A DNA stretch of 64,000 nt from contig CAISJD010000022.1 of the NCBI GenBank assembly GCA_903885605.1, positions 6,437 to 70,436 of the forward strand. The letters are read 5' to 3'. The notes beneath the pieces are model-generated. The model was not told where the DNA came from and made no database searches. It saw only the letters and a list, made by a program, of their open reading frames with translations. The stretch is from an uncultured Chthonomonas sp. Lineage in GTDB: Bacteria; Armatimonadota; Chthonomonadetes; Chthonomonadales; CAJBBX01. The position numbers and the translations under genes are program-made. Below are positions 5,675 to 48,154 of the stretch, piece by piece (position 1 is the stretch's first letter; each line of letters starts with the position of its first letter).

Positions 5675-7645
5675 GTGAAATGCACCATCGTCGCCGCGCT
5701 TCTGGCGCTGCTCGCCGCCTCTGCCGCACTGGCCGGCGAAACCACCTGCCGCGAGGTCCGCGCGGTGAAGCTCTCAGCCCCGCCTGTGATCGACGGAAAG
5801 CTCGACGACGCCGTCTGGAAAGAAGCCGCCGCGTGCACGGGCTTCCTGGACGAGATGTGGTCCACACCGGTGGCTGAACAGACCATTGTACGCGTGGGCT
5901 ACGACTACAAGTGCATCTACGTTTCGTTTCGCTGCCTCGACACGCAGCCGAAGGCCATCGTCGCCCGAGAGACCAAGCGCGGCGCCGACTTTTTCCAGGA
6001 GGACCGCGTCCGGCTGCGCCTCAACCCTTTCAACAGCAAACGCGAGGAAGACGAGAGCGAACTCCACCTGAACCCGCTGGGCACCCAGGCGTCCGAGCTG
6101 GCCGGCGGCCGCGCAAACAAGCAGGAGTGGGAAGGCGCCTGGAAGGCCGCGGCGCAGATCGTGGAGGATGGCTGGGTGGCCGAGATGGCCGTGCCCTGGA
6201 GCGTCTTCGTGCGCCCGCCGGGCACCGGCAAGCCGGCTACGCTCGGCATTAACTTCGACCGCTACCAGGCCCGCACCCGGGTGAAGTCCTACTGGAGCAA
6301 CCTGGGTCAGCAGGAGCGCCGCGAGTTCGGCGGGCAGTGGTTGGATGTCGTCATGCCGCAGGCCGACGAGGTCGACCGGCTCTCCGTGCTGGGCTACCTC
6401 TTCGGCGGGGCAGACGGCGGGAACGTCACCGGGCGGGCGGGGCTGGATGCGCGCTACCAGTTCACGCCCTCGCTGACGGGCCAGGCCACGTTGAACCCGG
6501 ATTTCTCCAACGTGGAGGGCGCCGTCACCAGCGTCGATTTCTCTTACGCCGAGCGGCTGCCCGATGAGCGGAGGCCCTTCTTCCTGGAGGGCGCCGAGTA
6601 CTTTTCCTCGCCCCTCTACCATGTGCGCCCCTTCGCCAGCGTGCGGCTGGGCGACATGGACCTGGGCGCCAAGTTCTACGGCCGGGTTCGGCAGGGCACC
6701 GACGTGGGCCTGCTGGCGGGCCGCGACGCCTACGGCCGCTCCGACGCCGTGCTCAACTTCGCGCACCAGTTTTCGCCCTACGACAGCGTGGCCTTCCAGG
6801 GCGTCAGCCGAACCGGGCAGGGCATCAGCAACCAGGTGGGCGTGGCCAAGGCCAAGTTGCGCCGGGGCGACTGGAACCTGAACGCCGCCTACGGCAAGTC
6901 GGCCGACGCCACCGGACCGGGCGAGACCACCGACATCTCGGCCTGGTGGAGCGCCAAAGCCTGGTACGTCAGCGCCAACTATGAGCAGGTGAGCCGCAAT
7001 ATGCGCGCCCGCGACGGCTACGTCATGTTCCTGGACCAGAAGGGCTGGACCGCTGAGGGAGGCTACTACTCCAACTGGCGCACGGGCCCCTTCCGTTCTG
7101 GGAGCTGGTGGTGGAGCGCCAACAAGTATGAGCACCTCGACGGTAGCCCGTTCCGCGACGGTATCGGCACCGGTATCACGCTGGATACGGCCAACCAGTG
7201 GATGGTCGACCTGGACCTGAACACGGGAACGTTCGAGGACGACCGCGACCATGTGGTGCGCCTGGGCGCCCGCTACCCCTCGCAGGATAAGTTCCGGAAC
7301 GCCGGCATCTCCGTGGCTACGGGCAAGCGGCGCGGGAGCAACTACAGCGCCCTGAGCCCCGGCGTGACCTGGCGCTTCTTCAACCGGCTCTCGGTGGGCG
7401 CCTCGGCCGAGGTGATCAGCGCAGGCGCCGCCTACCGGCAGGACATCGTCACCCTCTCGTACGACGTGGCCCGCGACCAGGCCGTCGGCGGTCGCCTGGT
7501 GCGCCGCGACGGCAAGGCCAACGGCTACCTTAGCTACCGGAAATCGGGCTACGGCGGTACGGAGACCTTCGTCATCCTGGGCGACCCCAACTCCGAAGCC
7601 TACGCCGATCGCCTGGTGGTGAAGGTAGTGATGCCGCTGAAGTAG
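5675..7645 (+). CDS. secreted CBM9/DOMON-like domain protein with a C-terminal beta-rich (DUF5916-like) domain
   Basis: Signal peptide (V)KCTIVAALLALLAASAALA. KLSAPPVIDGKLDDAVWKEAA is the typical start of the CBM9-like module. The long Gly/aromatic beta-rich remainder follows. GTG start preceded by GGAG. Confidence 0.55.
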   Translation: MKCTIVAALLALLAASAALAGETTCREVRAVKLSAPPVIDGKLDDAVWKEAAACTGFLDEMWSTPVAEQTIVRVGYDYKCIYVSFRCLDTQPKAIVARETKRGADFFQEDRVRLRLNPFNSKREEDESELHLNPLGTQASELAGGRANKQEWEGAWKAAAQIVEDGWVAEMAVPWSVFVRPPGTGKPATLGINFDRYQARTRVKSYWSNLGQQERREFGGQWLDVVMPQADEVDRLSVLGYLFGGADGGNVTGRAGLDARYQFTPSLTGQATLNPDFSNVEGAVTSVDFSYAERLPDERRPFFLEGAEYFSSPLYHVRPFASVRLGDMDLGAKFYGRVRQGTDVGLLAGRDAYGRSDAVLNFAHQFSPYDSVAFQGVSRTGQGISNQVGVAKAKLRRGDWNLNAAYGKSADATGPGETTDISAWWSAKAWYVSANYEQVSRNMRARDGYVMFLDQKGWTAEGGYYSNWRTGPFRSGSWWWSANKYEHLDGSPFRDGIGTGITLDTANQWMVDLDLNTGTFEDDRDHVVRLGARYPSQDKFRNAGISVATGKRRGSNYSALSPGVTWRFFNRLSVGASAEVISAGAAYRQDIVTLSYDVARDQAVGGRLVRRDGKANGYLSYRKSGYGGTETFVILGDPNSEAYADRLVVKVVMPLK

Positions 7646-36561: not shown

Positions 36562-39015
36562 GTGGCCTTCGCCGGCACCATCAACCTAGTCCGCCGATCA
36601 CGCTTTCGCATCCTGGCTGCCGTGCTTGCGTCCGCAGCCGCGCCTCTCTGGGCGGAGCCGTCGAAGCCGGTCGACGCTCCATCGATGCTCGCGCCCTGGC
36701 GAGCGGGGCTTGTATACGGCGAACGCAGCCGCACCGGTCCGCTGTTCATCAGCGTGGCGCGTGACGTCGGCGGGCCGTTCCCGTCAGTAGAGGGGCACTG
36801 GAGCCGCGACTGGGTGGGCGGCCGAAGGACCATCGAGACAAAGGGCGGCAGGACCATCGAACGCTGGCTCGGATATCGCCTCCCGGGCGACGGCGTGAAG
36901 GGCGACTTCGACGTCGAGGTCGAGTACACCGTGCGCAGGGGGCAGTGCGACGTGCGGACCTTCCTCACGAACCGGCTCAGCCTCGGCGTCTTCGACCTGC
37001 GCCATGTCTTCCGCGTATGCCCGGAGGCTGCGCCCACGCCGGGCCGAACCTATGTGCTCTTCGGCCTCGATGAGTGGGTCCGCGATCCCGTCGCGCTGCT
37101 TACGACCGACCGGGTTCAGCGCCTGCTGCCGACGTCCTCTACGGCGTATGTGGACGAAGGCGCAGGCCATGGGCTCTACCGCAACCGGTGCAGCCCACGG
37201 CCGATGATCTCGCTGCACTCCGAGCGGTTCGGCCTGATGGTCCACGACCTCGATCATGACAATGCAGCGCCCGGCTCCCTCCTGATCGGCTCCAACGACG
37301 GTGCGCTGGAGTTCGGATGGACCTACCGTGCGCCGGGCGAACACAAGCCGGCGAACGGGCGCAGGGGGGAGCGGACGCAGGTTGGCCCTGCCGTTCGGTT
37401 CGTCGCGTTGCCGACGAGGGCGGATCCGGAGAACGGCTGGTGGGATACGCTTCGGGCCTACAAAGCCCATGCAGCACGCGCGGGCCTTCTGCCGCGCTTG
37501 CAGATGAAGGACAGGAACGTCCCAGCAGGATGGGCTCGTGACAGCCTATCGCTTGTCGTCAACGTGGGCATGCCGGTGGCCGGCGACCCGCAGCGCCGCA
37601 TCGACCCGGGGCCGGCTGTCGAGACGATCCGGAAGATGGCGCGATTCTACCGGGCGAGCGGGCAGCGACGGTTCACCCCCATGCTTTGGGGCTGGTCCGC
37701 CGTCGGCCCTTACCGAGCCCCAGCCGGGTTCGACGCCCTCCTGGCCGGGCTCAAGGAGCTTGAGCGCGAACTGGACGTGGAGATTCGCCCGGCGGTCTAC
37801 CTGCACGGATGCATGCTCAGCAAGGCCGCCATCGGCACGCCCCTGGAGGCATGCCTGATGCGGGACCTGCGCGGCAAGCCGTTCACCTGGGGTGGCGATC
37901 TGTACAACGCCCACGCCGACCATCCTCTCTTCGTAGCGGAGATTGAGCGCACTGTGCGCGACATGGTGCGGCGCGGCGTTCGTGGCTTCTACTTCGATGC
38001 GCCGTTCGGCGAGGAGACACCGGACTACGGGCGCGATGGCGCGGATCGCGAGCACCATGTGGCCATACGCCGGATGCTGCAACGCGTAGCGCGGACCGTA
38101 AGCAGACTGGGTGGGGGCGTGATCAGCCACGAGGCGCAACGGCTCGGCCTTCCGGGGATGAAGGGCGCTGCGGGTCCGACGGTCTCCGGTGCGTACACCG
38201 TACCTTTCACCGAGGCGCTCTACCACGAGCTTGAGATACCGATCTTCTTCGGCGACCTGGCGGGGGTTCCGTACTCCCTCGCGGCTGCCGACGCACGCAT
38301 CACCGGCTCTGGCACCTACCAGTCGGACGATGACATTGTGCGGCTCGCCATAGAGGGGGCCGTCACCGGTCGCGCCGCCGTCATGTGCTTCGGCCTTGAT
38401 CGCCCGTACCACGAGATGGGCGACTCAGCCGGCTGGGCGGAGCGTGCCATGCACCGTATGGCCGCAGTGGCGATGTCGAACGGCCTGCGAGCGCGCCGCG
38501 AGCACCGCGAGCTCCGGACCGGCCGGATGCTGCCCTGCCCATCGCACGAGGCGACGGTGAACTCCGCCTATCTGCGGCCCTGGGTCTACGTTCAGAAGCC
38601 CGAGGGTGCTGCAGTGGAGATACAGAAGGACGCCATCGAAGTGCGTAGCGCTCGTGTTCCCGTGGCGTTCTATCAGGACACCGAGAGCCGCGGGCGCTAC
38701 CTGCTGGTGGTGGGCAACCCGACGCAACGCCCGATCACGATGCGCTTCACGCTGACGAGGCACGACCTGCCGGGCTGGGCAGGCAGCATGGACCGCATGC
38801 GGATCGAGAACGCCGACATCCTATCGCGCACAGGCTTGAGTGTCGAGATGTCGGTCCAGGTGCCGCCGAGTGACCTCGCGTGCGTAACGGTACGGGTCAG
38901 CGGGGAGTCGGGGACGGCGGGAGGCGGATGGGCCGGCGGCGCCGGGTACAACCGCATGGGCAATGTGCGATCGGACGCGGCGCTTAAGGAAGTGCCGAGG
39001 AGGAGTGGGCAGTGA
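36562..39015 (+). CDS. secreted hypothetical protein (about 818 aa)
   Basis: The start is GTG 36562, 8 nt after AAGGAG. The signal-like N-terminus is RSRFRILAAVLASAAAPLWA. No family recognised. It is in the same operon as its neighbours, with a GTGA overlap at the 3' end. Confidence 0.55.
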   Translation: MAFAGTINLVRRSRFRILAAVLASAAAPLWAEPSKPVDAPSMLAPWRAGLVYGERSRTGPLFISVARDVGGPFPSVEGHWSRDWVGGRRTIETKGGRTIERWLGYRLPGDGVKGDFDVEVEYTVRRGQCDVRTFLTNRLSLGVFDLRHVFRVCPEAAPTPGRTYVLFGLDEWVRDPVALLTTDRVQRLLPTSSTAYVDEGAGHGLYRNRCSPRPMISLHSERFGLMVHDLDHDNAAPGSLLIGSNDGALEFGWTYRAPGEHKPANGRRGERTQVGPAVRFVALPTRADPENGWWDTLRAYKAHAARAGLLPRLQMKDRNVPAGWARDSLSLVVNVGMPVAGDPQRRIDPGPAVETIRKMARFYRASGQRRFTPMLWGWSAVGPYRAPAGFDALLAGLKELERELDVEIRPAVYLHGCMLSKAAIGTPLEACLMRDLRGKPFTWGGDLYNAHADHPLFVAEIERTVRDMVRRGVRGFYFDAPFGEETPDYGRDGADREHHVAIRRMLQRVARTVSRLGGGVISHEAQRLGLPGMKGAAGPTVSGAYTVPFTEALYHELEIPIFFGDLAGVPYSLAAADARITGSGTYQSDDDIVRLAIEGAVTGRAAVMCFGLDRPYHEMGDSAGWAERAMHRMAAVAMSNGLRARREHRELRTGRMLPCPSHEATVNSAYLRPWVYVQKPEGAAVEIQKDAIEVRSARVPVAFYQDTESRGRYLLVVGNPTQRPITMRFTLTRHDLPGWAGSMDRMRIENADILSRTGLSVEMSVQVPPSDLACVTVRVSGESGTAGGGWAGGAGYNRMGNVRSDAALKEVPRRSGQ

Positions 39016-40850
39016 GGGGAATGCTCTTGCCGCTGATGGTTGCAGCTCTTGTGGCAGCGCGGGCGGGGCACGCCCAGCAGTCGAGGTTGTTTCCGGTTCG
39101 CAGCTTCGGCGCCGTGGCCAACTCCGGGCAGGATGCCACGGACGCGATCCGTCGAGCCATCAGCGCAGCCTCGGCGGCAGGTTCGCGCTCCGAAGTAGTC
39201 CTCGAAGCCGGGGAGTACCGTGTGGGGGCCGCCGCGCCGGCTGGCTACTGCTTCCCGGTCCAGGGAGCCCGCGAACTCACGGTCCGCGGCGCGGGTAAGC
39301 GAACCAGGATCGTCATCACGAGGCCGGACGTCGGGGCCTTCCTCTTCGGCGCATGCACGCACGTGCGGATCGCCGACCTCACGATTGACTACGACCCGGT
39401 CCCCTTCTGCCAGGGAACGGTGACCAGGGTCGATGTGGACGGAGGCTGGTTTGACCTCGAGGTCGATGCCGACAGCCCGACCCCGGATGCCCCGAACTTC
39501 ACGGGAGCCGCAGAACCCTACGGTAAGTGGGGCATGATCATCGACCGCGCCACGCGGCGCATCCGCGCGGGCACGCCAGACCACTACATGACCCCGAAGT
39601 GGGAGCGCCGGGGCGGTCGGACCTGGCGTTTCTTCACCACTGAGGAGCACTACCGACTGGGCCTGCGCAGCATGCGCGCCGGGGACGCCTATGTGCATCT
39701 CGCCCGCGGCTACGGCGGCGCGATCCTGGCTCAGGCGTGCGACGGCGTCCAGATCGAGCGGGTCACGATCCACGCCTCGCCCGGGCTTGTCGTCGGGCTC
39801 GTGGGCAACAAGGGCGAGATCGCCGTGCGGCGGCTCGAGGCGCGTTTCCTGCCGAAGTCGACCCGCCTCCTGACGGCCAACGCAGACGGCGTCCACTGCC
39901 AACAGAACCGCTCGGGGCCTGTCATCGAAGACTGCTACTTCGAGGGCATGGCAGACGACGGCGTGAACATCTACGCTCCGCCCAACGTGGTGCGCGAGGT
40001 CCGTGGCCCTACCGAATGGCTCGTCACGGCCGGCTGCCTCGTCTTGCCGGGCGAACGGCTACAGGTCCTGGACCCGAAGACAGGCGCCCTGCTGGGGCAG
40101 GTTAAGGTCACCGACGTCGCCGTCGAGGGCCGGGCGTTCCGGCTTACGGTGGACCAAGCCGTCGCCGGCGTCCGTGCAGGCGATGACCACCGGACGGCCT
40201 GCACGCTCTACAACAGGGACGCCTGCGGCGCGGGCTTCGTCATCCGGCGCAACACGATGAACGGCAACCGGCGCTACGGGTGCCTGCTGCGTGCCGGCGG
40301 CGGCGTGGTCGAGGACAACACCTTCGTCAACACGACCGGGGCCGGCGTCGTGGTTTCCAACGAGCCCGACTGGCCCGAGGGGCCGGTCCCGTGGGGCATC
40401 ACGATCCGCCGCAACCGGTTCATCGGGGGAGGCACCTGCTTGGGCTACGCCGACTCACCGACCGGTGCGGCGCTATCGGTGCGCAGTGTGCGTCTGGGCC
40501 ATGCCACGGCCATGGAGCCCGCCGTCAGCGGCATGATCGTGGAGGCGAACCTGTTCAAGGAGCGCGCCGGAACTGCGATCTACCTGGGCGCCTGCCGCGG
40601 AGCAGACGTGCGCGGCAACCGCATCACTGCCTCGGCATCGACCGGGCTGCTTCGCTCTGGCGCCTCGATCGAGGTCGACGGTTGCGCGGGCGTAACGATC
40701 ACGGGCAACGCCGTGACGGATACCCGCAAGGGCACGCTCGCCGGCCTAGCTATCGCAAAGGGAACGGCCTCCGGCGAGGCAGGGGTGCGTGCGATGGGCA
40801 ACCGATGGGGACTGCGCCGCGGAGCGCCCGATATTGCCGACAGGCGCTAG
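39012..40850 (+). CDS. secreted right-handed parallel beta-helix protein (pectate-lyase-3/GH28-like fold)
   Basis: Signal peptide (V)RGMLLPLMVAALVAARAGHA. FPVRSFGAVANSGQDATDAIRRAI is the typical N-terminal strand of this fold. Repeated NxxGxGV/I coil motifs follow (e.g. VNTTGAGVVVSN). AGGAG RBS. Confidence 0.7.
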   Translation: MRGMLLPLMVAALVAARAGHAQQSRLFPVRSFGAVANSGQDATDAIRRAISAASAAGSRSEVVLEAGEYRVGAAAPAGYCFPVQGARELTVRGAGKRTRIVITRPDVGAFLFGACTHVRIADLTIDYDPVPFCQGTVTRVDVDGGWFDLEVDADSPTPDAPNFTGAAEPYGKWGMIIDRATRRIRAGTPDHYMTPKWERRGGRTWRFFTTEEHYRLGLRSMRAGDAYVHLARGYGGAILAQACDGVQIERVTIHASPGLVVGLVGNKGEIAVRRLEARFLPKSTRLLTANADGVHCQQNRSGPVIEDCYFEGMADDGVNIYAPPNVVREVRGPTEWLVTAGCLVLPGERLQVLDPKTGALLGQVKVTDVAVEGRAFRLTVDQAVAGVRAGDDHRTACTLYNRDACGAGFVIRRNTMNGNRRYGCLLRAGGGVVEDNTFVNTTGAGVVVSNEPDWPEGPVPWGITIRRNRFIGGGTCLGYADSPTGAALSVRSVRLGHATAMEPAVSGMIVEANLFKERAGTAIYLGACRGADVRGNRITASASTGLLRSGASIEVDGCAGVTITGNAVTDTRKGTLAGLAIAKGTASGEAGVRAMGNRWGLRRGAPDIADRR

Positions 40851-40964: not shown

Positions 40965-41918
40965 ATGGAACCTGCAAACGCCGCCTCAACGCCCTTCCGC
41001 GTCGTCACCTTCAACCTGCGCAACGGCCGCGCCGATGACGGCCCGGACTCGTGGAGCTTCCGCAGCGCCTGGGTTCCCGCCTGGGTCGCTGGACTGGGAG
41101 CCGACATCATCGGCCTACAGGAGGCGTTCCACGACCAGGCCGAGGCCGTACACGCGGCGCTACGAGGCTTCGTCCGCGCAGGAGTGGGGCGCGATGACGG
41201 GCTCCAGGCCGGCGAGTACTGCCCGCTCTACATCCGCTCAGTGCGCTTCGAGGCGTTGGAGGAGGGCACGTTCTGGTTCTCAGAAGCGCCCGGTACGCCC
41301 GGTTCCATGGCCTGGGGCGCCTCGCACCCGCGCATCTGCACCTGGGTGCGACTGCGCGACAAGGCCACCGGAGGGACGATGTGGGTCGGCAACCTGCACC
41401 TCGACCATGCTTCGCAGGAGGCCCGCCTCCGTAGCGCCGACCAACTGGCGGCCCGCGTGGTGGACTGGTCCCCCGAACCCGCCATCATCATGGGCGACTT
41501 CAACGTGGGCGAGGGCGACCCGGTCCTGGCGCGGCTGCTGCAGCCGGGCCTCCTCACCGATACCTTTCGGGGCATCCATCCGGACGCGGCAGACGCCTGC
41601 ACGTACCACGGCTTCCGGGGCGGCGAGGCAGGCGACAAGATCGACTACATCCTCGCAACGCCCGGCGTCCGCACGCACGGAGCTGCCATCATCCGCACGA
41701 CGCATCAGGGCCGCTATCCTTCGGACCACTACCCCGTGGCGGCCACGCTGACGACACAGGGGGAGAGGCATGGCTCAACGGCCTTGGAATGGGCTGTCGT
41801 CCCAGGGGAACCGAGACGCCGCGCCTCATCACCCCCACCCGCCGCCCCAGCAGGTACCATGCCTCTACATCCGCGATCGCTGGTCCGGACCGATGGCGAA
41901 GGGGAGTGCCTGCCATGA
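40965..41918 (+). CDS. endonuclease/exonuclease/phosphatase (EEP) family protein
   Basis: FRVVTFNLRNG at the N-terminus and ...YPSDHYPVAATL near the domain end. About 55 extra codons run through direct repeat L to the TGA of ctgccATGA. Confidence 0.8.
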   Translation: MEPANAASTPFRVVTFNLRNGRADDGPDSWSFRSAWVPAWVAGLGADIIGLQEAFHDQAEAVHAALRGFVRAGVGRDDGLQAGEYCPLYIRSVRFEALEEGTFWFSEAPGTPGSMAWGASHPRICTWVRLRDKATGGTMWVGNLHLDHASQEARLRSADQLAARVVDWSPEPAIIMGDFNVGEGDPVLARLLQPGLLTDTFRGIHPDAADACTYHGFRGGEAGDKIDYILATPGVRTHGAAIIRTTHQGRYPSDHYPVAATLTTQGERHGSTALEWAVVPGEPRRRASSPPPAAPAGTMPLHPRSLVRTDGEGECLP

Positions 41919-41939
41919 ATCGTCGCGAGTTCATCGGAA
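41822..41939 (+). repeat. direct repeat L (118 bp), left boundary of the 5.3-kb insertion
   Basis: Base-by-base comparison with 47273-47390 gives 113/118 identical in the same orientation. Confidence 0.9.
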
Positions 41940-42004
41940 TCCCGATGGCGGGCATAGAGGGCGGCTCTGGTCTGGTAGTTCTGGGCAGCAGGTCGGCTGG
42001 GTAG
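41915..42004 (+). pseudogene. orphaned 5' fragment of the NIPSNAP gene (first 9 codons, then unrelated sequence)
   Basis: MNRREFIG matches the start of the intact gene at 47366. The sequence diverges after ttcatcggaa and stops after 29 codons. Confidence 0.6.
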
Positions 42005-42230
42005 AGCCTTCTCCAAGGTTTGCGGGCATGACACACCCGAGCCTGCCGGCGGACGGACACGCCCGGCGGAGCTTCTGCGATGGCGGTTGCTGGCGGCCTT
42101 CGGGCTCGATCCCGGGCACAGCCACTGGATCAGGTCGTCGGCTCCCGCCTGGTCGGACGGCGCCGCCCCCACCGAGGCATCCCGTGGCAGGAGCCCGAGC
42201 GGGGGCGGCTCTCAACATGAAGACGATGAC

Positions 42231-42533
42231 CTAGAACGCCACGAAGACGTCAGTGCCGATGACCACCTGATCGCCAGAGAATCCGCCAACAGGGTCTGTC
42301 GCCGGGCGTGCGATCGCCACCTCCAGAACCGCCAGAGCAACGCCCACAACCCGCAGCGTAGGACCCCTCCCGGCCGGTCGCCAGTACCGTTCAAGCCACA
42401 CCGTGACGGTACCACACATGTGGGGCGGGAAGGGTCGGGTTCGGATGGGCTCGTTAGCCTGAATGCCGCTGAAGGTTTGAGCCCAAGTGGCCCGCGCGGC
42501 GGAACCCAGCTCGCGGCTGATTGAGTAGCACAT
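42231..42533 (-). CDS. hypothetical 100-aa ORF divergent from the kinase gene (possibly a gene remnant)
   Basis: Moderately GC3-rich with a beta-strand-like C-terminus ...GDQVVIGTDVFVAF. No RBS seen and no family recognised. Confidence 0.2.
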   Translation of the reverse strand: MCYSISRELGSAARATWAQTFSGIQANEPIRTRPFPPHMCGTVTVWLERYWRPAGRGPTLRVVGVALAVLEVAIARPATDPVGGFSGDQVVIGTDVFVAF

Positions 42534-42601
42534 CAGCCAGCTTCAGATCCAAGGGTATCCTAACAGCGAACTGCGCCTACACCAACGAGGGTAGCTGTCC
42601 A

Positions 42602-43996
42602 ATGCCGACTGCTGTGCTGAAATCGCCTCCCGCCGGAATGCCGACCAGTATCGTCCTCACCGACCGAACGCGCGTCGGAGGCGAAGGTACGGTCCACTTC
42701 AGTACTGACGGCAAGTATGCGATAAAGGTCTACCACGGGACCCCGGTCGAGCGAGAGAAGCTGCTCGGCTACGTGATGACCATCTTCCGGACGATACCCC
42801 GCGACCAAGAGCGTTACATACTGCCTCCCCTGGCTCTGGTCCAGTCGCTCAACGGGAAGCCGTGCGTCGGATTCGTAATGCGACGGGTCGAGGACAGGTA
42901 CCGCGAACTGGTGGATTTCGTACTCCACCCGGCAGCGGCGGCGGCGCAGTTCAAGCAGGGACGCACGTGGGCCGACTATCTGAAACTCGCCCGCAGCATC
43001 AGTAGCGCCCTGGTCGTCCTGCACGGCAAGGGCTGTGCGCATAGTGACATACACTTCAGTAACTTCCTGGCCGACCTCCGCGATGGCTCGGCAGTTATGC
43101 TGGAGGTCGATGGTGTCGTCGTGCCTGGGTTTCTGCCGGCCCAGGTCGCCGGGATGGCGGGTTTCATGGCGCCGGAGATCGTGCACCGGAAGGCGCGGCC
43201 CGACGAGCGCACGGACCGCCACAGCCTGGCGGTCTTGGTCCTCCATACACTGCTGTTCCGCAACGCCATGCAGCCGCTCATCGACTATGCAACAGACCCC
43301 GAGACGAGCGAGCAACTGGGCTGGGGAGAGATGGCGCTCTTTAGCGAACACCCAGCCGACCGACGCCATCGGCCAAAGGCGCTCGGCGTGCCTCTCTTCT
43401 CGCGCGGCTGCCTTAGCTACACCATGCTGACCGAGGAACTCCGCCGTCTCACGGATCAGGCATTCATGGCAGGCCTGCGAGTGCCAGACGACCGGCCGAC
43501 CTCACGTGACTGGGAGCGAGCGCTCGCTTGCGCTATCGACGAGCTGTGGCCCTGCACCCGGTGTCGGCAGTGGTTCCCGTATCCACACTGGTTGGTCCCT
43601 GCGGAGCGCCGCACCTGTCCCTTCTGTGGTATGCGGATCAGCCCCCCGGCTCCCGTCGTCCTGCGTCTCTTAGAGGAGCGCGGCAAGACCGGCTTCTACA
43701 CCACCCATCGGCGGGTGGTCTTGGGCTCTGGCTTCCGGCTGTATGCGGACGTCGTCGATCCATCCAGGGTGCCGCCGCCTTCCCGGCAGCAGGAAGGGCA
43801 TGTAGCTCATGTCGAATGGGATCGTGTCCGGTGCACATGGCGGCTGGTGAACGACAACGCCGGTGTGATCACGAGTTCAGTGGACGGCGCCCGACAGGAG
43901 GCCCGCAGGGGTTCCAGCATCGTTGTGGAGCAGGGCGCCCAGATCCATTTCGGCCCTGGCGCTAGGATGGCCTTAGTGGTGCAGGCAGGAGCGTAG
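42602..43996 (+). CDS. Ser/Thr protein kinase-like protein with a C-terminal zinc ribbon and FHA-like domain (TerY-P/YegI-type)
   Basis: Beta3 Lys context GKYAIKVY, catalytic loop HSDIHFSNFL (HxDxxxxN) and activation-segment end GFMAPE. The Zn ribbon is CTRC...CPFC. The C-terminal 110 aa follow an FHA-like pattern (HVAHVEWD..WRLVNDNAGVITSSVDG...IVVEQGAQIHFG). I place the start at ATG 42602. Confidence 0.75.
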   Translation: MPTAVLKSPPAGMPTSIVLTDRTRVGGEGTVHFSTDGKYAIKVYHGTPVEREKLLGYVMTIFRTIPRDQERYILPPLALVQSLNGKPCVGFVMRRVEDRYRELVDFVLHPAAAAAQFKQGRTWADYLKLARSISSALVVLHGKGCAHSDIHFSNFLADLRDGSAVMLEVDGVVVPGFLPAQVAGMAGFMAPEIVHRKARPDERTDRHSLAVLVLHTLLFRNAMQPLIDYATDPETSEQLGWGEMALFSEHPADRRHRPKALGVPLFSRGCLSYTMLTEELRRLTDQAFMAGLRVPDDRPTSRDWERALACAIDELWPCTRCRQWFPYPHWLVPAERRTCPFCGMRISPPAPVVLRLLEERGKTGFYTTHRRVVLGSGFRLYADVVDPSRVPPPSRQQEGHVAHVEWDRVRCTWRLVNDNAGVITSSVDGARQEARRGSSIVVEQGAQIHFGPGARMALVVQAGA

Positions 43997-44107
43997 CGGA
44001 ATCTCCGAGCAGGGCTTCCGGTTTGTGCGGTGTTCCGAGAGTACGTAGGCAGACCAGTCCGGTTGCGGCGCACCCCATGCGCCCTTCGCACGAAAGGAGC
44101 TGACCAG

Positions 44108-44800
44108 ATGACTGATTTCGATATGAACGTCACGATGGGTGAGGGTGTACGGCGGCTGCCGGTGTACCTCTTGCTCGACTGCTCCGGGAGCATGGGTGGC
44201 GCGCCGATTGAATCGGTGAAGCGCGGTGTCGAGTTGTTCATCAGCGAGGTTGCCGGGGATACGTACGCCAGGCAGACGGTGCATGTCGGTGTGATCACCT
44301 TTGCCAGCGAGGCAGCTCTCGTGACCAAGGGCCTCGTGCCCTTCGACGCCTTCACGATGCCGACCCTGAGTGCGAGCGGCACGACGGCTCTGGGTGGCGC
44401 GCTACGGTTGCTGCGGCAGTCGCTTGACTCGGACCTGAGGAAGTCGGTGCCCGGCGGCGAGAAGGGCGACTGGAAGCCACTGGTGTTCGTTCTGACCGAC
44501 GGGGCGCCGACCGATGCATGGCAGGAGCCGCGTCAGGACCTCCTCAGTCGCCAGAGCGGTAAGGTGATCAACATGATCACGGTCGGATGCGGCACCGGCA
44601 TCAATGAGGAGCAGATCAAGGCGATCGCCATCGGTCCGACCTTTCGCATGGATGCAACGGAAAGCTCATTTAAGACATTCTTCCAGTGGGTTTCGCAGAG
44701 CGTTAAGGCCGTAAGCAAGGCCGTCAGCCAGCCCGATGCCGGGCAGGCGCCGAGTGCCATGCCACAGCCCGACCCTGCGGTGATCCAGTACGTTCCATGA
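44108..44800 (+). CDS. von Willebrand factor A domain protein, TerY-like
   Basis: AAAGGAG RBS. The MIDAS motif sits in LPVYLLLDCSGSMGG, with SASGTTALGGAL and VFVLTDGAPTD further on. Confidence 0.85.
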   Translation: MTDFDMNVTMGEGVRRLPVYLLLDCSGSMGGAPIESVKRGVELFISEVAGDTYARQTVHVGVITFASEAALVTKGLVPFDAFTMPTLSASGTTALGGALRLLRQSLDSDLRKSVPGGEKGDWKPLVFVLTDGAPTDAWQEPRQDLLSRQSGKVINMITVGCGTGINEEQIKAIAIGPTFRMDATESSFKTFFQWVSQSVKAVSKAVSQPDAGQAPSAMPQPDPAVIQYVP

Positions 44801-45918
44801 AACCGGTACGGGGGAGCAGCCCGGCAGAGACGGGTATGGCACTCGGGGATCGTCCGCTCTCGATGGCGGGTGATACACATCCGGACTGGTTGGCCGCGCA
44901 TGGTCAGGTGGGTGCGTGGTCCATCGTGGCCGCTTCGGCGGTGGGCCAAATGCACCTCCGCGACCAGACCCCGCGAGACGATGCGTTCTCCGTTCGGGCC
45001 ATAGGACCCTGGCTGGCTGTGGCCGTGGCCGACGGTGCGGGTTCTATGCGTCGCTCCCGCTACGGGGCGGCCTTCGCTGTAGACACGCTTACCGAGCGGC
45101 TCCTCTGTGCCGTCTACGATGCGGCTCCGGCCGACGATCCCGGCCCTACCGGGCCCGGCCCTGACGGCCCTACGCCGCCTTCAGGTCCAGGGCTCCTGAG
45201 CCGGCTCGTGCAGTCACTGCCTGCACGAACGAAGGTCATTGACGGGCCCTCGGTTGTCGGGTTCGACGAGGTGGCCCTGCGGGAACCACGCGTCGAGGCG
45301 AGCGCCTGCTGGGCGTCCGTGGCGTGGCGCAGGCCCGACGCACCGGCACAACCTGCGGCGCTCGACATGGTAGCGCCGTCGCTCTCCGCGGCGGTCCGCT
45401 CGGCGTTTGGTAGCACGCGGGCTGAGTTGGAAGGCTATGTCTCGCGGCTCGGTGTCCCCTTGCGCGACATCCACTGCACGCTGATGTGCGTCCTGCTTGA
45501 CACTCGCACAGGCGCGTTCGCCGCCGGGCACATTGGCGACGGCCTGATCGCGGCGCTCCATCCGGGTTTCGGTGCGAGACCGGCGGTGGAGCCGCCGAGC
45601 ACCGGCAACGTGGGCGAAACCTACCTGATCACTCAGGATGGATGGGAACGGTACCTGGCGGTCACAGAGTCATCGCCCGCCGAGGCCGAAGGCATTTCGA
45701 CCCTGTATCTGATGTCGGACGGCGTGGCCGACGACTGTAGCCACCCGCCGCCGCCGGGCGTGTTCGATCGCTGGGCCCGCGATATCGATCGCGAGGTCCG
45801 CTCCTCCGCCGGCGCAGGCACGTCGGCAGTCAGGCTCGTGCGGTGGCTGGCCAACTACGAGCTCCCGGGCAGTTGGGATGATCGGACGCTGGTCGTGTTG
45901 GCGAAGGTCGGCGAGTAG
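44797..45918 (+). CDS. PP2C-family protein phosphatase (PP2C_2-like)
   Basis: ATGA overlap with the vWA gene. Motifs SAVGQMHLRDQTPRDDAF, LAVAVADGAGS, HIGDGLI and LMSDGVADD, with a Pro/Gly-rich insert. Confidence 0.8.
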   Translation: MKPVRGSSPAETGMALGDRPLSMAGDTHPDWLAAHGQVGAWSIVAASAVGQMHLRDQTPRDDAFSVRAIGPWLAVAVADGAGSMRRSRYGAAFAVDTLTERLLCAVYDAAPADDPGPTGPGPDGPTPPSGPGLLSRLVQSLPARTKVIDGPSVVGFDEVALREPRVEASACWASVAWRRPDAPAQPAALDMVAPSLSAAVRSAFGSTRAELEGYVSRLGVPLRDIHCTLMCVLLDTRTGAFAAGHIGDGLIAALHPGFGARPAVEPPSTGNVGETYLITQDGWERYLAVTESSPAEAEGISTLYLMSDGVADDCSHPPPPGVFDRWARDIDREVRSSAGAGTSAVRLVRWLANYELPGSWDDRTLVVLAKVGE

Positions 45919-45923
45919 GCCTG

Positions 45924-46727
45924 ATGGCAGAGGAGCGGTCCTGTTTCGTGGCGCCGGACCAAGCGGGCCTCCTCCTCAGCGAGCTGGCACAGGCGGTCGC
46001 CGATGGCAGGCGTCTCGGTTCCAGCGAGATCTCGCAGATCGTCTCGCGGCACCTCGCCGGTTCCTCGGATGACGCCCTGCCCCGAGTCGGCGAGTGGTAC
46101 CGGGTTCTTGTCGATGCTCCGCGCCGCAGGGGGCACGACGCTGAGTACGCAGTCGTGACGCGCCTGATGGGTCTCGGCGTGCCGGAAGCGCCGGCGTTAC
46201 TCGCTGTCAGTGTGGCCCGATCTGCCTCGATCCCCAACGCGAGTGGCGAGTCTGGTGTATCTTTGGGAGCCGCTTCGACGAGCACGCGTCGTGCCGGCGA
46301 TGGGGTGCGTTGGTCGGGGTCTGCGTACAGGTCCCGCGCGCCGAGCGCCAGTGGGGTCAGCCCTGCTTCCGCTCCTCCTTCTCCTGTGGTCGGGCGGACG
46401 GCGTCCCCTCAGCAGGGCTCGTCAGTTCGGGGCGGGCAACTTACGCGGCCTGGCAAGATTCCTCTGGCCCGACCCAACAGGCGTCAATCACGAGCAGCTT
46501 TGCTATGGCCAGTGCATATCTATGCCTTGTATATCCGGAAGTCATGGTCAATCATGCTGAGTGTGCCACTGCTGAGTCCTCAAACTTCAGGCGACATTAC
46601 CAGCACATCTGATGCTATTAGATATGGTGCCATGTTAATAGTCACTGGCGCTGTAATGTGGCATCCTTTACGGTTGACATGTATAATGCTATATACTATC
46701 TACACATTCATCAGAGGAATTATATAA
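45924..46727 (+). CDS. hypothetical protein; only the first ~95 codons look confidently coding
   Basis: Starts 5 nt after the PP2C stop. GC3 is high up to about 46200. A Ser/Pro/Gly-rich low-complexity stretch follows, then a hydrophobic tail encoded in the AT-rich segment. The true 3' end is unclear. Confidence 0.35.
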   Translation: MAEERSCFVAPDQAGLLLSELAQAVADGRRLGSSEISQIVSRHLAGSSDDALPRVGEWYRVLVDAPRRRGHDAEYAVVTRLMGLGVPEAPALLAVSVARSASIPNASGESGVSLGAASTSTRRAGDGVRWSGSAYRSRAPSASGVSPASAPPSPVVGRTASPQQGSSVRGGQLTRPGKIPLARPNRRQSRAALLWPVHIYALYIRKSWSIMLSVPLLSPQTSGDITSTSDAIRYGAMLIVTGAVMWHPLRLTCIMLYTIYTFIRGII

Positions 46728-46728
46728 T
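46701..46728 (+). promoter_or_regulatory. sigma70-like promoter candidate (TACACA-N16-TATAAT) in the AT-rich cassette
   Basis: TATAAT is at 46723-46728 and the -35-like TACACA at 46701-46706. The GCACAT...ATGTGC inverted repeat around palindrome TGCGCGCA (46735-46758) lies just downstream. Confidence 0.3.
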
Positions 46729-46785
46729 GTGCACGCACATGCACTGCGCGCAATGTGCTATAGAGAATCGGGTGATAGTGCTCCC

Positions 46786-47106
46786 ATGATAACATTAATC
46801 ATGTTAGGCATTGCATTGATCGTTCTGGTATTTATGGTGGGGGCGGCATTGGTGGCAGGCTTGGGGTACGCCGCCATGGCTCTGCTGGGGATAGCATGGT
46901 CCTTCAGTGATAATATTCCCAGGATCATAACAATTATTATATTGTACGGTGCCCCGATTGGTGCCGTAGTGGCTGTAATCTATTACTATTTTGGTTGGTT
47001 GCCAGCCCAAACTCGAATGCTCGCATGTGCAGCAATAGCGGTTGCTCACGTTGTTGGCATCATCTGGACCCTTCGGCGACCCGTGCCGGCCAAGCCAACG
47101 AGGTAA
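46786..47106 (+). CDS. small multi-pass membrane protein (about 106 aa, 3-4 TM helices)
   Basis: The translation is strongly hydrophobic and periodic: ITLIMLGIALIVLVFMVGAALVAGLGYAAMALLGIAW, RIITIIILYGAPIGAVVAVIYYYFGW and MLACAAIAVAHVVGIIWTL, with a basic tail RRPVPAKPTR. The start is ATG 46786 (or GTG 46729). It is encoded in DNA of about 46% GC. Confidence 0.45.
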   Translation: MITLIMLGIALIVLVFMVGAALVAGLGYAAMALLGIAWSFSDNIPRIITIIILYGAPIGAVVAVIYYYFGWLPAQTRMLACAAIAVAHVVGIIWTLRRPVPAKPTR

Positions 47107-47272
47107 GTTATCTTCAGGCCTGTTCGCAGTATGGCGGATTGGCGGTTCGGCGTGCGCCAACTGGTGCTGCGCCCCGCGTCACATCGGCGGCGCCGGCTCC
47201 TTCGGTCTTCTCGCGGATTGGGCGGCTGGAGATCGGCATTCTTCTAGCCCATCGCCTGTTCGCTTCTCCCGC

Positions 47273-47390
47273 CGCCTCATCACCCCCACCTGCCGCCCCA
47301 GCAGGTACCATGCCTCTACATCCGCGGCCGTTGGTCCGGGCCGATGGCGAAGGGGAGTGCCTGCCATGAATCGTCGCGAGTTCATCGGAA
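47273..47390 (+). repeat. direct repeat R (118 bp), right boundary of the insertion
   Basis: 113/118 identical to 41822-41939. It contains the ATG and first 9 codons of the intact NIPSNAP gene. Confidence 0.9.
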
Positions 47391-48154
47391 GCTCGGCTGT
47401 GGCCGTGGGAGCCGCGGGGGCGTTGACGCTGGAGCCTGAGGCCGAGGCGGCCGCCGTGATCCGGGAGGTCTACGAACTGCGGCACTACAGGCTGAAGCCG
47501 GATGCCGCGCCGGACGGCCTGCTGGACTACTTCGCCAAGGCGCTCATTCCCGCCGCAAGGCGGCAGGGCCTCGGTCCGGTGGGCGTCTTCACGGAGCAGA
47601 AGCCCTCGGCCGAACCCACGGTGACGCTGCTGCTGGCCTTCCCGGCCATCGCTGCATTCTGGGCGTTCGCCGACAAGCTGGCGGCGGACAAGGAGTACCA
47701 GAGCGCCGGCGCGGCGTATGTCGGCGCGTCGCCCCAGTCGCCCGCCTACGCCCGCATCGAGAGCTCGCTGCTGGCCGCCTTCGCCGGCATGCCCCGCGTC
47801 GAGGCGCCTGATACGGCCAAGGAGCGCCAGTTCGAGCTGCGGACCTACGAGAGCCACAGCGAGGCCGCCCACGCACGCAAGGTGGGAATGTTCAACGACG
47901 GCGAGATCGCCATCTTCCGCCGCTGCGGCCTGGCGCCCGTCTTCTTCGGCAGCACGCTCATCGGCACGCGCCGGCCGAACCTGACCTACATGCTCACCTA
48001 TCCCGGCCCCGCCGAGCGCGCCGCCGCATGGGGCAAGTTCATCAACGATCCCGAGTGGAAGACGCTGAGCAAGACCCCGGGCCTCACGGACCCCGAGGTG
48101 GTCTCGAAGATCACCAGCGTCACGCTGATCCCGGCCGCCTGCTCGCAGATCTAG
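47366..48154 (+). CDS. NIPSNAP family protein with a TAT-type signal
   Basis: MNRREFIGSSAVAVGAAGAL is twin-Arg-like. Two NIPSNAP-type repeats (VYELRHYRLKPDA and FELRTYESHS). Confidence 0.8.
   Translation: MNRREFIGSSAVAVGAAGALTLEPEAEAAAVIREVYELRHYRLKPDAAPDGLLDYFAKALIPAARRQGLGPVGVFTEQKPSAEPTVTLLLAFPAIAAFWAFADKLAADKEYQSAGAAYVGASPQSPAYARIESSLLAAFAGMPRVEAPDTAKERQFELRTYESHSEAAHARKVGMFNDGEIAIFRRCGLAPVFFGSTLIGTRRPNLTYMLTYPGPAERAAAWGKFINDPEWKTLSKTPGLTDPEVVSKITSVTLIPAACSQI

What the first reader, a model, noticed from the sequence alone, without database searches (positions are those of the whole stretch)
42602..45918. Kinase / vWA / PP2C triad of the TerY-P (yegI-yegK-yegL) type as cargo of the insertion
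Three co-oriented, tightly packed genes (the last two ATGA-coupled) encode:
- a Hanks-fold kinase (AIKVY, HSDIHFSN, GFMAPE)
- a TerY-like vWA protein with an intact MIDAS motif (DCSGS)
- a PP2C_2-type phosphatase (ADGAGS, GDG, SDGVADD)

This matches the 'TerY-phosphorylation triad' described by comparative genomics. As I recall, a TerY-P system was reported to give anti-phage protection in a large 2020 defence-system screen, and E. coli yegI/yegK/yegL is the chromosomal counterpart.

The kinase here carries a CxxC...CxxC zinc ribbon followed by an FHA-like module. That would allow phospho-Thr feedback within the system. Its location inside a repeat-bounded insertion fits a mobile defence or stress island.
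Basis: partly seen in the sequence, partly recalled or inferred. Interest (0 to 1): 0.75.

Follow-up and report, generated by a model that had tools for sequence, protein, structure and literature searches.

The report
TerY-P kinase/vWA/phosphatase triad, inserted
This is a genuine but ordinary member of the known TerY-P signalling triad (kinase, metal-binding vWA protein, PP2C phosphatase). It lies in a 5.4-kb repeat-bounded insertion in a probable Armatimonadota genome, and an anti-phage role is plausible but unproven.

Summary
Three co-oriented genes encode a catalytically complete Hanks-type kinase (42602-43996), a TerY-like vWA protein with an intact MIDAS site (44108-44800) and a PP2C_2 phosphatase (44797-45918, ATGA overlap).

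All three match the canonical TerY-P triad of enterobacterial ter plasmids:
- vWA: 45% identity, E 6e-25
- kinase: E 6e-43
- PP2C: E 4e-8

They also match E. coli YegI/PphC/YegL.

The kinase's invariant CxxC...CxxC Zn ribbon is real. The C-terminal ~115 residues model with high confidence as a beta-sandwich whose 50 best PDB matches are all FHA domains. No FHA sequence profile matches it, and the same C-terminus is present in the canonical plasmid kinase, so it is not a special feature of this copy.

Relatives usually carry a fourth gene: a ~200-aa uncharacterised N-terminal module fused to beta-helix, FGE-sulfatase, WD40 or SH3 domains. Here only its first ~105 residues survive, followed by AT-rich orphan DNA.

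The block is bounded by 118-nt direct repeats (5 mismatches) that duplicate the 5' end of a NIPSNAP gene, and its GC3 is lower than the flanks. It carries no integrase, no empty site was found, and the neighbours are metabolic genes.

Verdict: new member of a known kind, low-to-moderate interest.

The parts
41822..41939 (+). Left copy of the 118-nt direct repeat. It holds the region upstream of NIPSNAP plus its ATG (41915) and first 8 codons, then runs into unrelated sequence.
   Evidence: the repeat finder family D1. Pairwise alignment shows 5 mismatches, all in the first 68 nt, with the last 50 nt identical.
41945..42601 (.). 657-bp spacer with no recognisable gene at the left end of the insertion.
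   Evidence: No coding-type GC periodicity. No Pfam hit for its ORFs. No similarity to any fetched locus.
42602..43996 (+). TerY-P-type Ser/Thr kinase, 464 aa. Kinase domain about residues 1-313, Zn ribbon C318-C342 (43553-43627), FHA-like beta-sandwich about residues 350-462 (43649-43987).
   Evidence: Pkinase 1.3e-6. AF2 pLDDT 95.4. Foldseek matches kinases. Catalytic and Cys residues are invariant or nearly so. E 6e-43 to the ter-plasmid TerY-P kinase, including the C-terminus. E 4e-14 to YegI. C-terminal model pLDDT 95.2, with the top 50 PDB hits all FHA.
44108..44800 (+). TerY-like vWA protein, 230 aa, with MIDAS residues DxSxS (DCSGS), T (SGTTALG) and D (LTDGAPTD). It has no TerY_C domain.
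   Evidence: VWA 8.3e-15 and VWA_2 3.3e-8. 45% identity, E 6e-25, to VWA genes next to TerD on ter plasmids. E 1e-21 to YegL. SD-like GAAAGGAG lies upstream.
44797..45918 (+). PP2C_2-type phosphatase, 373 aa, with a Pro/Gly-rich insert at about residues 108-135. D79 aligns with the catalytic D46 of PphC.
   Evidence: PP2C_2 1.5e-26 in two stretches. E 1e-7 to PphC. E 4e-8 to the ter-plasmid PP2C. ATGA overlap with the vWA gene. PphC D46N is inactive (bioRxiv 10.1101/303594).
45924..46253 (+). Remnant of the fourth gene. Only the helical first half (~105 aa) of the conserved ~200-aa N-terminal module survives. The mechanical ORF runs on to 46727.
   Evidence: hhalign probability 94.7%, E 5.8e-8, residues 17-126 against the module profile A8. 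GC3 falls from 0.77 to 0.64 and then 0.41 after codon 110. tblastn finds no Ig-like or beta-helix remnant.
46479..47106 (+). AT-rich orphan segment (GC 0.43-0.50). It contains sigma-70-like promoter matches and a 106-aa hydrophobic ORF (46786-47106).
   Evidence: Composition. Promoter scan finds 4 sites against 1.2 expected, all in 46658-46943. The ORF's only database hit is itself.
47273..47390 (+). Right copy of the direct repeat. It continues into the intact NIPSNAP gene (47366-48154).
   Evidence: NIPSNAP 4.6e-19.

Best explanation
What it is. The locus is a bona fide TerY-P (TerY-phosphorylation) triad. It is a three-protein reversible phospho-switch acquired horizontally by a high-GC, probably Armatimonadota, genome.

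Shown:
- The kinase has a complete catalytic apparatus, followed by a four-Cys Zn ribbon and a C-terminal beta-sandwich with an FHA-like fold.
- The vWA protein has a complete MIDAS site.
- The PP2C keeps the Asp that is essential in its E. coli homologue PphC.
- All three are homologous to the ter-plasmid TerY-P triad and to YegI/PphC/YegL.

Inferred mechanism, by analogy with YegI/PphC biochemistry:
1. The kinase autophosphorylates and phosphorylates partners.
2. The PP2C resets it.
3. The TerY vWA protein, the most conserved component, uses its metal site to bind a ligand or partner and gates the switch.
4. The Zn-ribbon/FHA-like tail docks the kinase onto a partner, possibly a phospho-protein or nucleic acid.
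5. In most relatives a fourth protein probably supplies the sensor or effector. It consists of a conserved 200-aa adaptor module plus a variable beta-helix, FGE-sulfatase, WD40 or SH3 domain.

State of this copy. The fourth gene is truncated, so the locus is at best a bare triad.

Output. The most likely output is a stress or phage-triggered response, but no evidence here ties this copy to defence.
For: Domains and motifs:
- Domain hits.
- Invariant K42/D149/N154/E192 and Cys residues in 99 homologues.
- AF2 and Foldseek give a kinase fold.

Homology to the canonical triad on Klebsiella pC39-334kb, which is arranged VWA-TerD-VWA-VWA/TerY_C-PP2C-kinase:
- vWA: 45% identity, E 6e-25
- kinase: E 6e-43 over residues 125-459
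- PP2C: E 4e-8

Homology to E. coli YegI, YegL and PphC.

Biochemical precedent. YegI autophosphorylates and PphC dephosphorylates it; PphC D46N is inactive (bioRxiv 10.1101/303594 and 10.1101/819920).

Co-occurrence. vWA and PP2C lie adjacent to the kinase in most of the 27 closest loci. A fourth gene is present in 21 of 31 loci.

FHA-like fold.

The TerY-P concept, including a Zn-ribbon-fused kinase, is described in PMC11090510.

Foreign origin. Direct repeats. GC3 is 0.77-0.79 against 0.81-0.93 in the flanks. Distribution is patchy across Armatimonadota, Atribacterota, Chloroflexota, Streptomyces, Bacillota, Planctomycetota and a Methanocellaceae MAG.
Against: - No functional data exist for this clade.
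- Pkinase scores below Pfam's gathering threshold.
- The PADLOC library gives no TerY-P call. It also fails on the canonical plasmid triad and on YegL/PphC, so it is uninformative.
- The experimentally defensive TerY-P has a different kinase C-terminus, an OB fold (PMC11090510).
- The fourth gene is truncated here, and several relatives are decayed (L008, L013, L087), so this copy may not be fully functional.
- Gene order here is K-V-P rather than the usual V-P-K. The same order occurs in a Chthonomonadales MAG.
Confidence: 0.72

Rival explanations
1. The triad is a stand-alone anti-phage defence system of the Gao et al. 2020 TerY-P type, carried on a mobile defence island.
For: - TerY-P was reported protective against T7-like phages (PMC7699616; PMC11090510).
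- The block is repeat-bounded and compositionally deviant.
- Distribution is patchy across phyla.
- Relatives show frequent decay or loss.
- The fourth gene evolves fast and has swappable sensor-like domains, as expected for conflict systems.
- The kinase gives weak hits to the defence kinases PD-T4-6, MkoA and MAD6.
Against: - The validated systems have an OB fold instead of a Zn ribbon at the kinase C-terminus (PMC11090510).
- No defence genes, integrase or transposase lie in or next to the insertion; the neighbours are glycoside-hydrolase, sugar-metabolism and regulator genes.
- In Caldatribacteriaceae the module is vertically inherited in conserved synteny.
- The PD-T4-6 and MkoA hits cover only the generic catalytic core, at E 1e-3 to 1e-5.
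Confidence: 0.3
2. It is a housekeeping or regulatory Ser/Thr signalling module, for example for metal, envelope or stress sensing as proposed for Ter-linked TerY-P, and has no role in conflict.
For: - Upstream synteny of 10 genes is conserved in at least 8 Caldatribacteriaceae species, with the vWA protein 80-93% identical, as conserved as or more conserved than the housekeeping neighbours.
- The neighbours in every context examined are metabolic.
- The original TerY-P proposal was a metal-sensing phospho-switch (quoted in PMC11090510).
- E. coli yegIKL is chromosomal, with no transcription detected under the conditions tried and no known phage phenotype (bioRxiv 10.1101/303594).
Against: - Distribution is patchy, with different insertion contexts in each Armatimonadota genome.
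- The block is a repeat-bounded insertion with lower GC3.
- Decayed copies are common.
- The fourth-gene C-terminal domains are variable.
Confidence: 0.35
3. The locus is a decaying, non-functional remnant of a four-gene system.
For: - The fourth gene is truncated after ~105 aa and followed by AT-rich orphan DNA.
- 657 bp of featureless DNA lies at the left end.
- Relatives include a truncated kinase without partners (L008), a frameshifted kinase (L013) and a copy with no vWA gene (L087).
Against: - All three triad ORFs are intact with every catalytic, MIDAS and Zn residue.
- Their GC3 of 0.77-0.79 is coding-like.
- The kinase protein is identical on 14 contigs from several samples.
- Stand-alone triads without a fourth gene are the canonical form.
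Confidence: 0.15

Closest known systems
TerY-P triad of the ter (tellurite-resistance) clusters on enterobacterial plasmids, e.g. Klebsiella pneumoniae pC39-334kb (NZ_CP061701.1)
   Same: - The same three protein families are present.
- vWA is 45% identical.
- The kinase is 33% identical (E 6e-43) across the catalytic core, the Zn ribbon and the C-terminal beta-sandwich.
- The PP2C_2 phosphatase matches at E 4e-8.
- The genes are co-directional and adjacent.
   Different: - The order here is kinase-vWA-PP2C rather than vWA-PP2C-kinase.
- There is no TerD/TerX, no second or third vWA gene and no TerY_C domain.
- The PP2C is shorter (373 vs 587 aa).
- The host is a high-GC, probably Armatimonadota, genome rather than a plasmid.
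E. coli YegL / PphC (YegK) / YegI
   Same: All three proteins are homologous (E 1e-21, 1e-7 and 4e-14). The YegI alignment includes the C...CPxC Zn-ribbon region. Kinase and phosphatase activities, and PphC acting on YegI, are shown biochemically.
   Different: [quoted passage not shown] Identities are low (24-32%).
TerY-P anti-phage system of Gao et al. 2020 (Science 369:1077)
   Same: It has the same vWA, PP2C and kinase composition (PMC7699616).
   Different: According to PMC11090510, its kinase carries a C-terminal OB fold instead of a Zn ribbon. I could not read the primary paper or its sequences, so no direct comparison was made.
TerY-P modules embedded in Type II/III-A CoCoNuT (McrBC-related) systems
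   Same: The kinase is fused to a C-terminal Zn ribbon (PMC11090510).
   Different: No McrB/McrC, CnuH/CnuE or any restriction component lies near the window triad.

Membership tests
TerY-P triad | TerY-like vWA protein with an intact MIDAS site | tested here: met
   VWA 8.3e-15. DCSGS, T and D motifs are present in the sequence. 45% identity to VWA genes flanking TerD on ter plasmids.
TerY-P triad | PP2C-like phosphatase encoded adjacent to the vWA gene | tested here: met
   PP2C_2 1.5e-26. ATGA overlap with the vWA gene. E 4e-8 to the ter-plasmid PP2C. D79 aligns with PphC D46.
TerY-P triad | Ser/Thr kinase with a C-terminal Zn ribbon in the same operon | tested here: met
   E 6e-43 to the ter-plasmid TerY-P kinase. 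Three of the four Cys are invariant and the fourth is conserved in at least 90%. The fold is a kinase fold.
TerY-P triad | Canonical gene order vWA-PP2C-kinase | tested here: not met
   The order here is kinase-vWA-PP2C, also seen in Chthonomonadales locus L086. Most relatives are V-P-K or V-P-g4-K. Order is not usually treated as defining.
Gao 2020 TerY-P defence system | Kinase C-terminal OB fold, as described in PMC11090510 | tested here: not met
   The C-terminus is a Zn ribbon plus an FHA-like beta-sandwich.
Gao 2020 TerY-P defence system | Protection against phage | not testable with these tools
   This needs plaque assays.
Gao 2020 TerY-P defence system | Match to curated defence-system HMMs | tested here: inconclusive
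   PADLOC-DB v2 gives no vWA or PP2C hit. It also gives none for YegL/PphC or for the canonical plasmid triad. DefenseFinder is not available.
FHA domain | 11-stranded beta-sandwich FHA fold | tested here: met
   The C-terminal AF2 model has pLDDT 95.2. The 50 best Foldseek PDB hits are all FHA domains, with probability 0.91-1.0. The scores are weak, however: E 4e-3 to 7e-2 and target-normalised TM-score mostly 0.32-0.63.
FHA domain | Match to FHA sequence profiles | tested here: not met
   None of 99 family members hits Pfam FHA at E<=1. A profile of the domain finds no FHA chain in the PDB.
FHA domain | Conserved pThr-binding residues (G-R, S-x-x-H, N) | tested here: inconclusive
   In the corresponding loops the family has G-x-G-F-(K/R), P-P-x-S-R and V-N-D. 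The register comes from my reading of strand order, not from a residue-level structural alignment. The Atribacterota subclade lacks the PPxSR loop.
Integrative mobile element / genomic island | Flanking direct repeats at a gene end | tested here: met
   118-nt repeats, 95.8% identical, 5451 bp apart, covering the 5' end of NIPSNAP.
Integrative mobile element / genomic island | Integrase, transposase or other mobility gene | tested here: not met
   No such domain was found in any ORF of 41945-47272.
Integrative mobile element / genomic island | Empty site in related genomes | tested here: inconclusive
   All contigs carrying the identical NIPSNAP or kinase are filled sites or break at the repeat. 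The nearest other NIPSNAP homologues are at most 61% identical and show no synteny.
Integrative mobile element / genomic island | Composition deviating from the host | tested here: met
   GC3 is 0.77-0.79 for the triad genes and 0.41-0.53 for the AT-rich part, against 0.81-0.93 in the flanks.

The most novel reading that the evidence does not exclude
In this kinase clade, TerY-P may really be a four-component system. An uncharacterised ~200-aa module (helical plus Ig-like, no Pfam family) is conserved from Armatimonadota to Streptomyces, Chloroflexota, Bacillota and a Methanocellaceae MAG. It would tether interchangeable sensor or effector domains (beta-helix, FGE-sulfatase, WD40, SH3, CHAT protease) to the triad. 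The kinase's previously unannotated FHA-like C-terminal domain would be the phospho-dependent docking site for it. The window copy would then be a natural 'sensor-less' truncation.
Probability: 0.3. Interest if true: 0.5.

Novelty: new member of a known kind. Interest (0 to 1): 0.3.

Why it matters
As a TerY-P triad it adds little. The family is known from comparative genomics (Anantharaman et al. 2012), from E. coli biochemistry, and from defence screens.

Two by-products are modestly useful:
1. The C-terminal domain shared by canonical TerY-P kinases, which Pfam leaves unannotated, models confidently as an FHA-like beta-sandwich. This suggests a testable phospho-dependent docking step.
2. 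This clade's triads usually travel with a fourth gene that has a conserved adaptor module and swappable repeat domains. That is the architecture expected of a sensor in a conflict system.

Intact four-gene relatives (e.g. Streptomyces L011, Caldatribacterium L089) would be better experimental subjects than this truncated copy.

Tried and rejected
- PADLOC HMMs on all five ORFs gave only generic kinase-core hits. The library also misses YegL/PphC and the canonical plasmid triad, so the negative result is uninformative.
- NCBIfam gave nothing specific.
- Pfam FHA across 99 family members gave no hit. A profile of the C-terminal domain against PDB sequences found only a designed Ig protein at E 0.007.
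- Search for an empty insertion site failed. The exact-protein look-up of NIPSNAP returned only filled or broken contigs. The metagenome scan with NIPSNAP returned homologues at most 61% identical, with no EEP/AraC synteny.
- I tested whether the window order K-V-P-g4' arose from a V-P-g4-K circle or tandem broken inside g4. No g4 C-terminal remnant exists in 41945-42601, so this is not supported.
- The left spacer and the AT-rich right part have no Pfam, Rfam or nucleotide similarity. orf5 has no homologue other than itself.
- A search with the orf4 N-terminal profile found only 9 mostly fragmentary proteins.
- The upstream beta-helix gene (39012-40850) was considered as the missing fourth component and rejected. 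It lies outside the repeats, does not cluster with the g4 family, and by my reading has a hydrophobic N-terminal leader that looks like a secretion signal.
- The ARAGORN tRNA-Ser at 45557-45647 lies inside the PP2C CDS and is treated as a false positive.
- Anantharaman 2012 and Gao 2020 are not held in the paper library.


Full report
**Observation**

The window is high-GC (0.688 overall). At the reported place there are three co-oriented ORFs.
- The kinase runs from ATG 42602 to the stop at 43996 (464 aa).
- The vWA gene most plausibly starts at ATG 44108, 8 nt after a GAAAGGAG Shine-Dalgarno-like sequence, and ends at 44800.
- The PP2C gene is 44797-45918 and overlaps the vWA stop in an ATGA.
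- A 111-bp spacer separates the kinase and vWA genes.
- A fourth ORF starts 5 bp after the PP2C stop.

Pfam gives VWA 8.3e-15, VWA_2 3.3e-8 and PP2C_2 1.5e-26. Pkinase scores 1.3e-6 (28.4 bits), which is below the 31.7-bit gathering score.

The kinase call is secured by other evidence. An AlphaFold2 model built on 99 homologues has mean pLDDT 95.4 and pTM 0.94. Foldseek aligns about 300 columns of it to eukaryotic-type kinases at E ~1e-9. K42, D149, N154 and E192 are invariant, and H147 and D170-G171 nearly so, across the family.

**Identity**

The vWA protein is 45% identical (E 6e-25) to VWA genes on more than 2,000 enterobacterial plasmids. On Klebsiella pC39-334kb these genes lie in the classical arrangement VWA - TerD family - VWA - VWA/TerY_C - PP2C - kinase. 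This is the canonical TerY-P triad of the ter cluster.
- The window kinase aligns to that plasmid kinase at E 6e-43, with 33% identity over residues 125-459.
- The window PP2C aligns to the plasmid PP2C at E 4e-8.
- All three window proteins also match E. coli YegI (4e-14), YegL (1e-21) and PphC (1e-7).
- PP2C D79 aligns with PphC D46, whose D46N mutant is inactive.
- JGI names many kinase homologues 'DNA-binding helix-hairpin-helix protein with protein kinase domain'. To my recollection this is the COG4248 name that covers YegI.

The TerY-P / yegIKL assignment is therefore supported by direct comparison, not only by recall.

**The kinase C-terminus**

In the four-Cys motif, C321, C339 and C342 are invariant and C318 is conserved in at least 90% of 99 sequences. 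YegI and the plasmid kinase share this motif.

A separate AF2 model of residues 310-464 has pLDDT 95.2. Its 50 best PDB matches by Foldseek are all FHA domains (KIF1A, MEK1, Rv1747, PNKP, GarA, MDC1 and others). Probabilities are 0.91-1.0, but E-values are weak (4e-3 to 7e-2) and target-normalised TM-scores are mostly 0.32-0.63.

No FHA sequence signal exists. None of the 99 members hits Pfam FHA at E<=1, and a profile of the domain finds no FHA chain in the PDB.

In the loops that would form the phosphothreonine pocket, most members carry G-x-G-F-(K/R), P-P-x-S-R and V-N-D. That register is my inference from strand order, and the Atribacterota subclade lacks the PPxSR loop.

The plasmid TerY-P kinase aligns through this whole domain, and Pfam leaves it unannotated there as well. 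The 'Zn ribbon + FHA-like module' is therefore a general property of this kind of TerY-P kinase, not a peculiarity of this copy. A phmmer scan of 1.84 billion representatives with the C-terminal 151 residues found only 31 clusters. Nearly all were the C-termini of ~460-aa proteins or fragments of them.

**Relatives and the fourth gene**

The kinase family has 114 hits and occurs patchily in Armatimonadota, 'bacterium HR10', Streptomyces, Chloroflexota, Atribacterota, Bacillota, Planctomycetota and a Methanocellaceae MAG. The identical protein is on 14 metagenomic contigs, all with the same context as the window.

In the 27 closest genomic loci the vWA and PP2C genes almost always lie next to the kinase, usually in the order vWA-PP2C-kinase. 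A Chthonomonadales MAG has the window's order, kinase-vWA-PP2C.

Clustering all flanking ORFs showed a fourth gene family in 21 of 31 loci. Its C-terminal parts vary:
- mostly right-handed beta-helix (PF13229/NosD)
- FGE-sulfatase (L006)
- WD40-like repeats (L087)
- SH3 (L026)
- one copy follows a CHAT protease domain (L026)

What unites them, except in Atribacterota, is a ~200-aa N-terminal module: a helical half plus an Ig-like half. It is 27-38% identical across phyla and has no Pfam family.

The window's orf4 matches only the helical half (hhalign probability 94.7%, E 5.8e-8, residues 17-126). After codon ~110, GC3 drops from 0.77 to 0.64 and then to 0.41, and no Ig-like or beta-helix remnant is detectable. 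The fourth gene is therefore truncated here.

It is followed by an AT-rich orphan segment (46479-47106). This segment carries sigma-70-like promoter matches and a 106-aa hydrophobic ORF whose only database match is itself.

**Is it an insertion, and is it a defence island?**

A 118-nt direct repeat (41822-41939 and 47273-47390) brackets 5,451 bp. It consists of the region upstream of the NIPSNAP gene plus its first 8 codons. The left copy runs into unrelated sequence, and the right copy continues into the intact gene.

The copies differ at 5 positions, all in the first 68 nt, and the last 50 nt are identical. This is not a fresh target-site duplication. It fits either an att-type recombination or a homology-facilitated import from a related donor in which the block already lay beside NIPSNAP. 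I cannot distinguish between these.

Triad GC3 (0.77-0.79) is below that of the flanks (0.81-0.93), which supports foreign origin.

Against the 'mobile defence island' reading:
- No ORF inside has an integrase or transposase domain.
- No empty site was found.
- The flanking genes are rhamnosidase, beta-helix, EEP, NIPSNAP, AraC, ThuA, dehydrogenase, LacI and sulfatase genes.
- Contexts in relatives are equally metabolic.
- In Caldatribacteriaceae the tetrad sits after the same ten upstream genes in at least 8 species. Identities fall in the order vWA 80-93%, kinase 67-79%, PP2C 45-64%, fourth gene 38-59%. That indicates vertical inheritance there, although the downstream side is variable.

On the other side, decayed copies are common, as is typical of accessory genes. 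L008 has a truncated kinase alone, L013 a split kinase, and L087 no vWA gene.

**Mechanism**

Shown: three intact genes with complete catalytic, MIDAS and Zn residues, homologous to a triad whose E. coli kinase autophosphorylates and whose phosphatase dephosphorylates that kinase.

Inferred:
1. The kinase and PP2C form a reversible switch.
2. The vWA protein, the most constrained component, gates the switch through its metal site.
3. The Zn ribbon and FHA-like sandwich dock the kinase on a partner.
4. In intact relatives the fourth protein supplies a variable sensor or effector.

Whether the output is anti-phage, as reported for TerY-P by Gao et al. 2020 (PMC7699616), is open. According to PMC11090510, the validated modules have an OB fold where this kinase has a Zn ribbon. 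I could not read the primary paper.

**Verdict**

The TerY-P/yegIKL interpretation is correct. The special significance given to the Zn-ribbon/FHA tail, and the 'mobile defence island' framing, are only partly supported.

This is a new member of a known kind, with a truncated accessory gene. Interest is 0.3. The most novel reading not excluded is the four-component system with a new adaptor module and an FHA-like docking domain.

Noticed in passing
L006:6362-6970, L009:7926-8546, L087:8255-8890, L011:7375-8040, L015:10179-10742, L023:4316-4915, L012:11334-12050, L026:11424-12020 and 5736-6299: A conserved ~200-aa module (helical plus Ig-like, no Pfam family) heads the fourth gene next to TerY-P triads in six phyla. 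It is fused to beta-helix, FGE-sulfatase, WD40 or SH3 domains, or follows a CHAT protease domain.
   Followed up: partly
L014, L016, L019-L022, L024, L025, L089 (Caldatribacteriaceae): The tetrad sits after the same ten upstream genes in at least 8 species. Identities fall in the order vWA 80-93%, kinase 67-79%, PP2C 45-64%, fourth gene 38-59%. Downstream context is not conserved.
   Followed up: yes
L117:11870-13369 (Klebsiella pC39-334kb TerY-P kinase): The canonical ter-plasmid TerY-P kinase shares the Zn ribbon and the FHA-like C-terminal domain with the window kinase. Pfam annotates only part of its kinase core and nothing in the C-terminus.
   Followed up: partly
window 45557-45647: ARAGORN calls a tRNA-Ser (anticodon GGA) inside the PP2C coding sequence. 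This is almost certainly a false positive in GC-rich coding DNA.
   Followed up: no
window 46479-47106: An AT-rich segment (GC 0.43-0.50 in a 0.69 genome) carries all four sigma-70-like promoter matches of the region and an orphan 106-aa hydrophobic ORF (46786-47106) with no homologue. Its origin is unknown.
   Followed up: partly
L002/L003/L004 vs window 44797-45918: On some contigs carrying the identical kinase and the same gene layout, the gene callers annotate the PP2C as a 183-aa product from an internal start instead of the 373-aa ORF. That call loses the N-terminal ADGAGS metal-binding motif.
   Followed up: no
L006:8041-9664: Two extra ORFs lie between the fourth gene and the kinase in one Armatimonadota relative. 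One looks by eye like an IS200/RayT-type transposase. This would be a secondary insertion splitting the operon.
   Followed up: no
L008, L013, L087: Decayed copies occur in relatives. HR10 (L008) has a truncated kinase with no vWA or PP2C within 10 kb. A Roseilinea genome (L013) has the kinase split into two ORFs. L087 has no vWA gene and its WD40-type fourth gene is split.
   Followed up: partly
phage record MT835511.1, 32659-33597: An unannotated human-gut phage contig encodes a distant relative of the kinase (23% identity over 72% of the query, E 4e-14). It is the only phage hit.
   Followed up: no
window 39012-40850: A 612-aa beta-helix protein (PF13229) lies two genes upstream of the insertion. 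By eye it has a hydrophobic N-terminal leader suggesting secretion. It does not cluster with the fourth-gene family and is probably an unrelated polysaccharide-active enzyme.
   Followed up: partly
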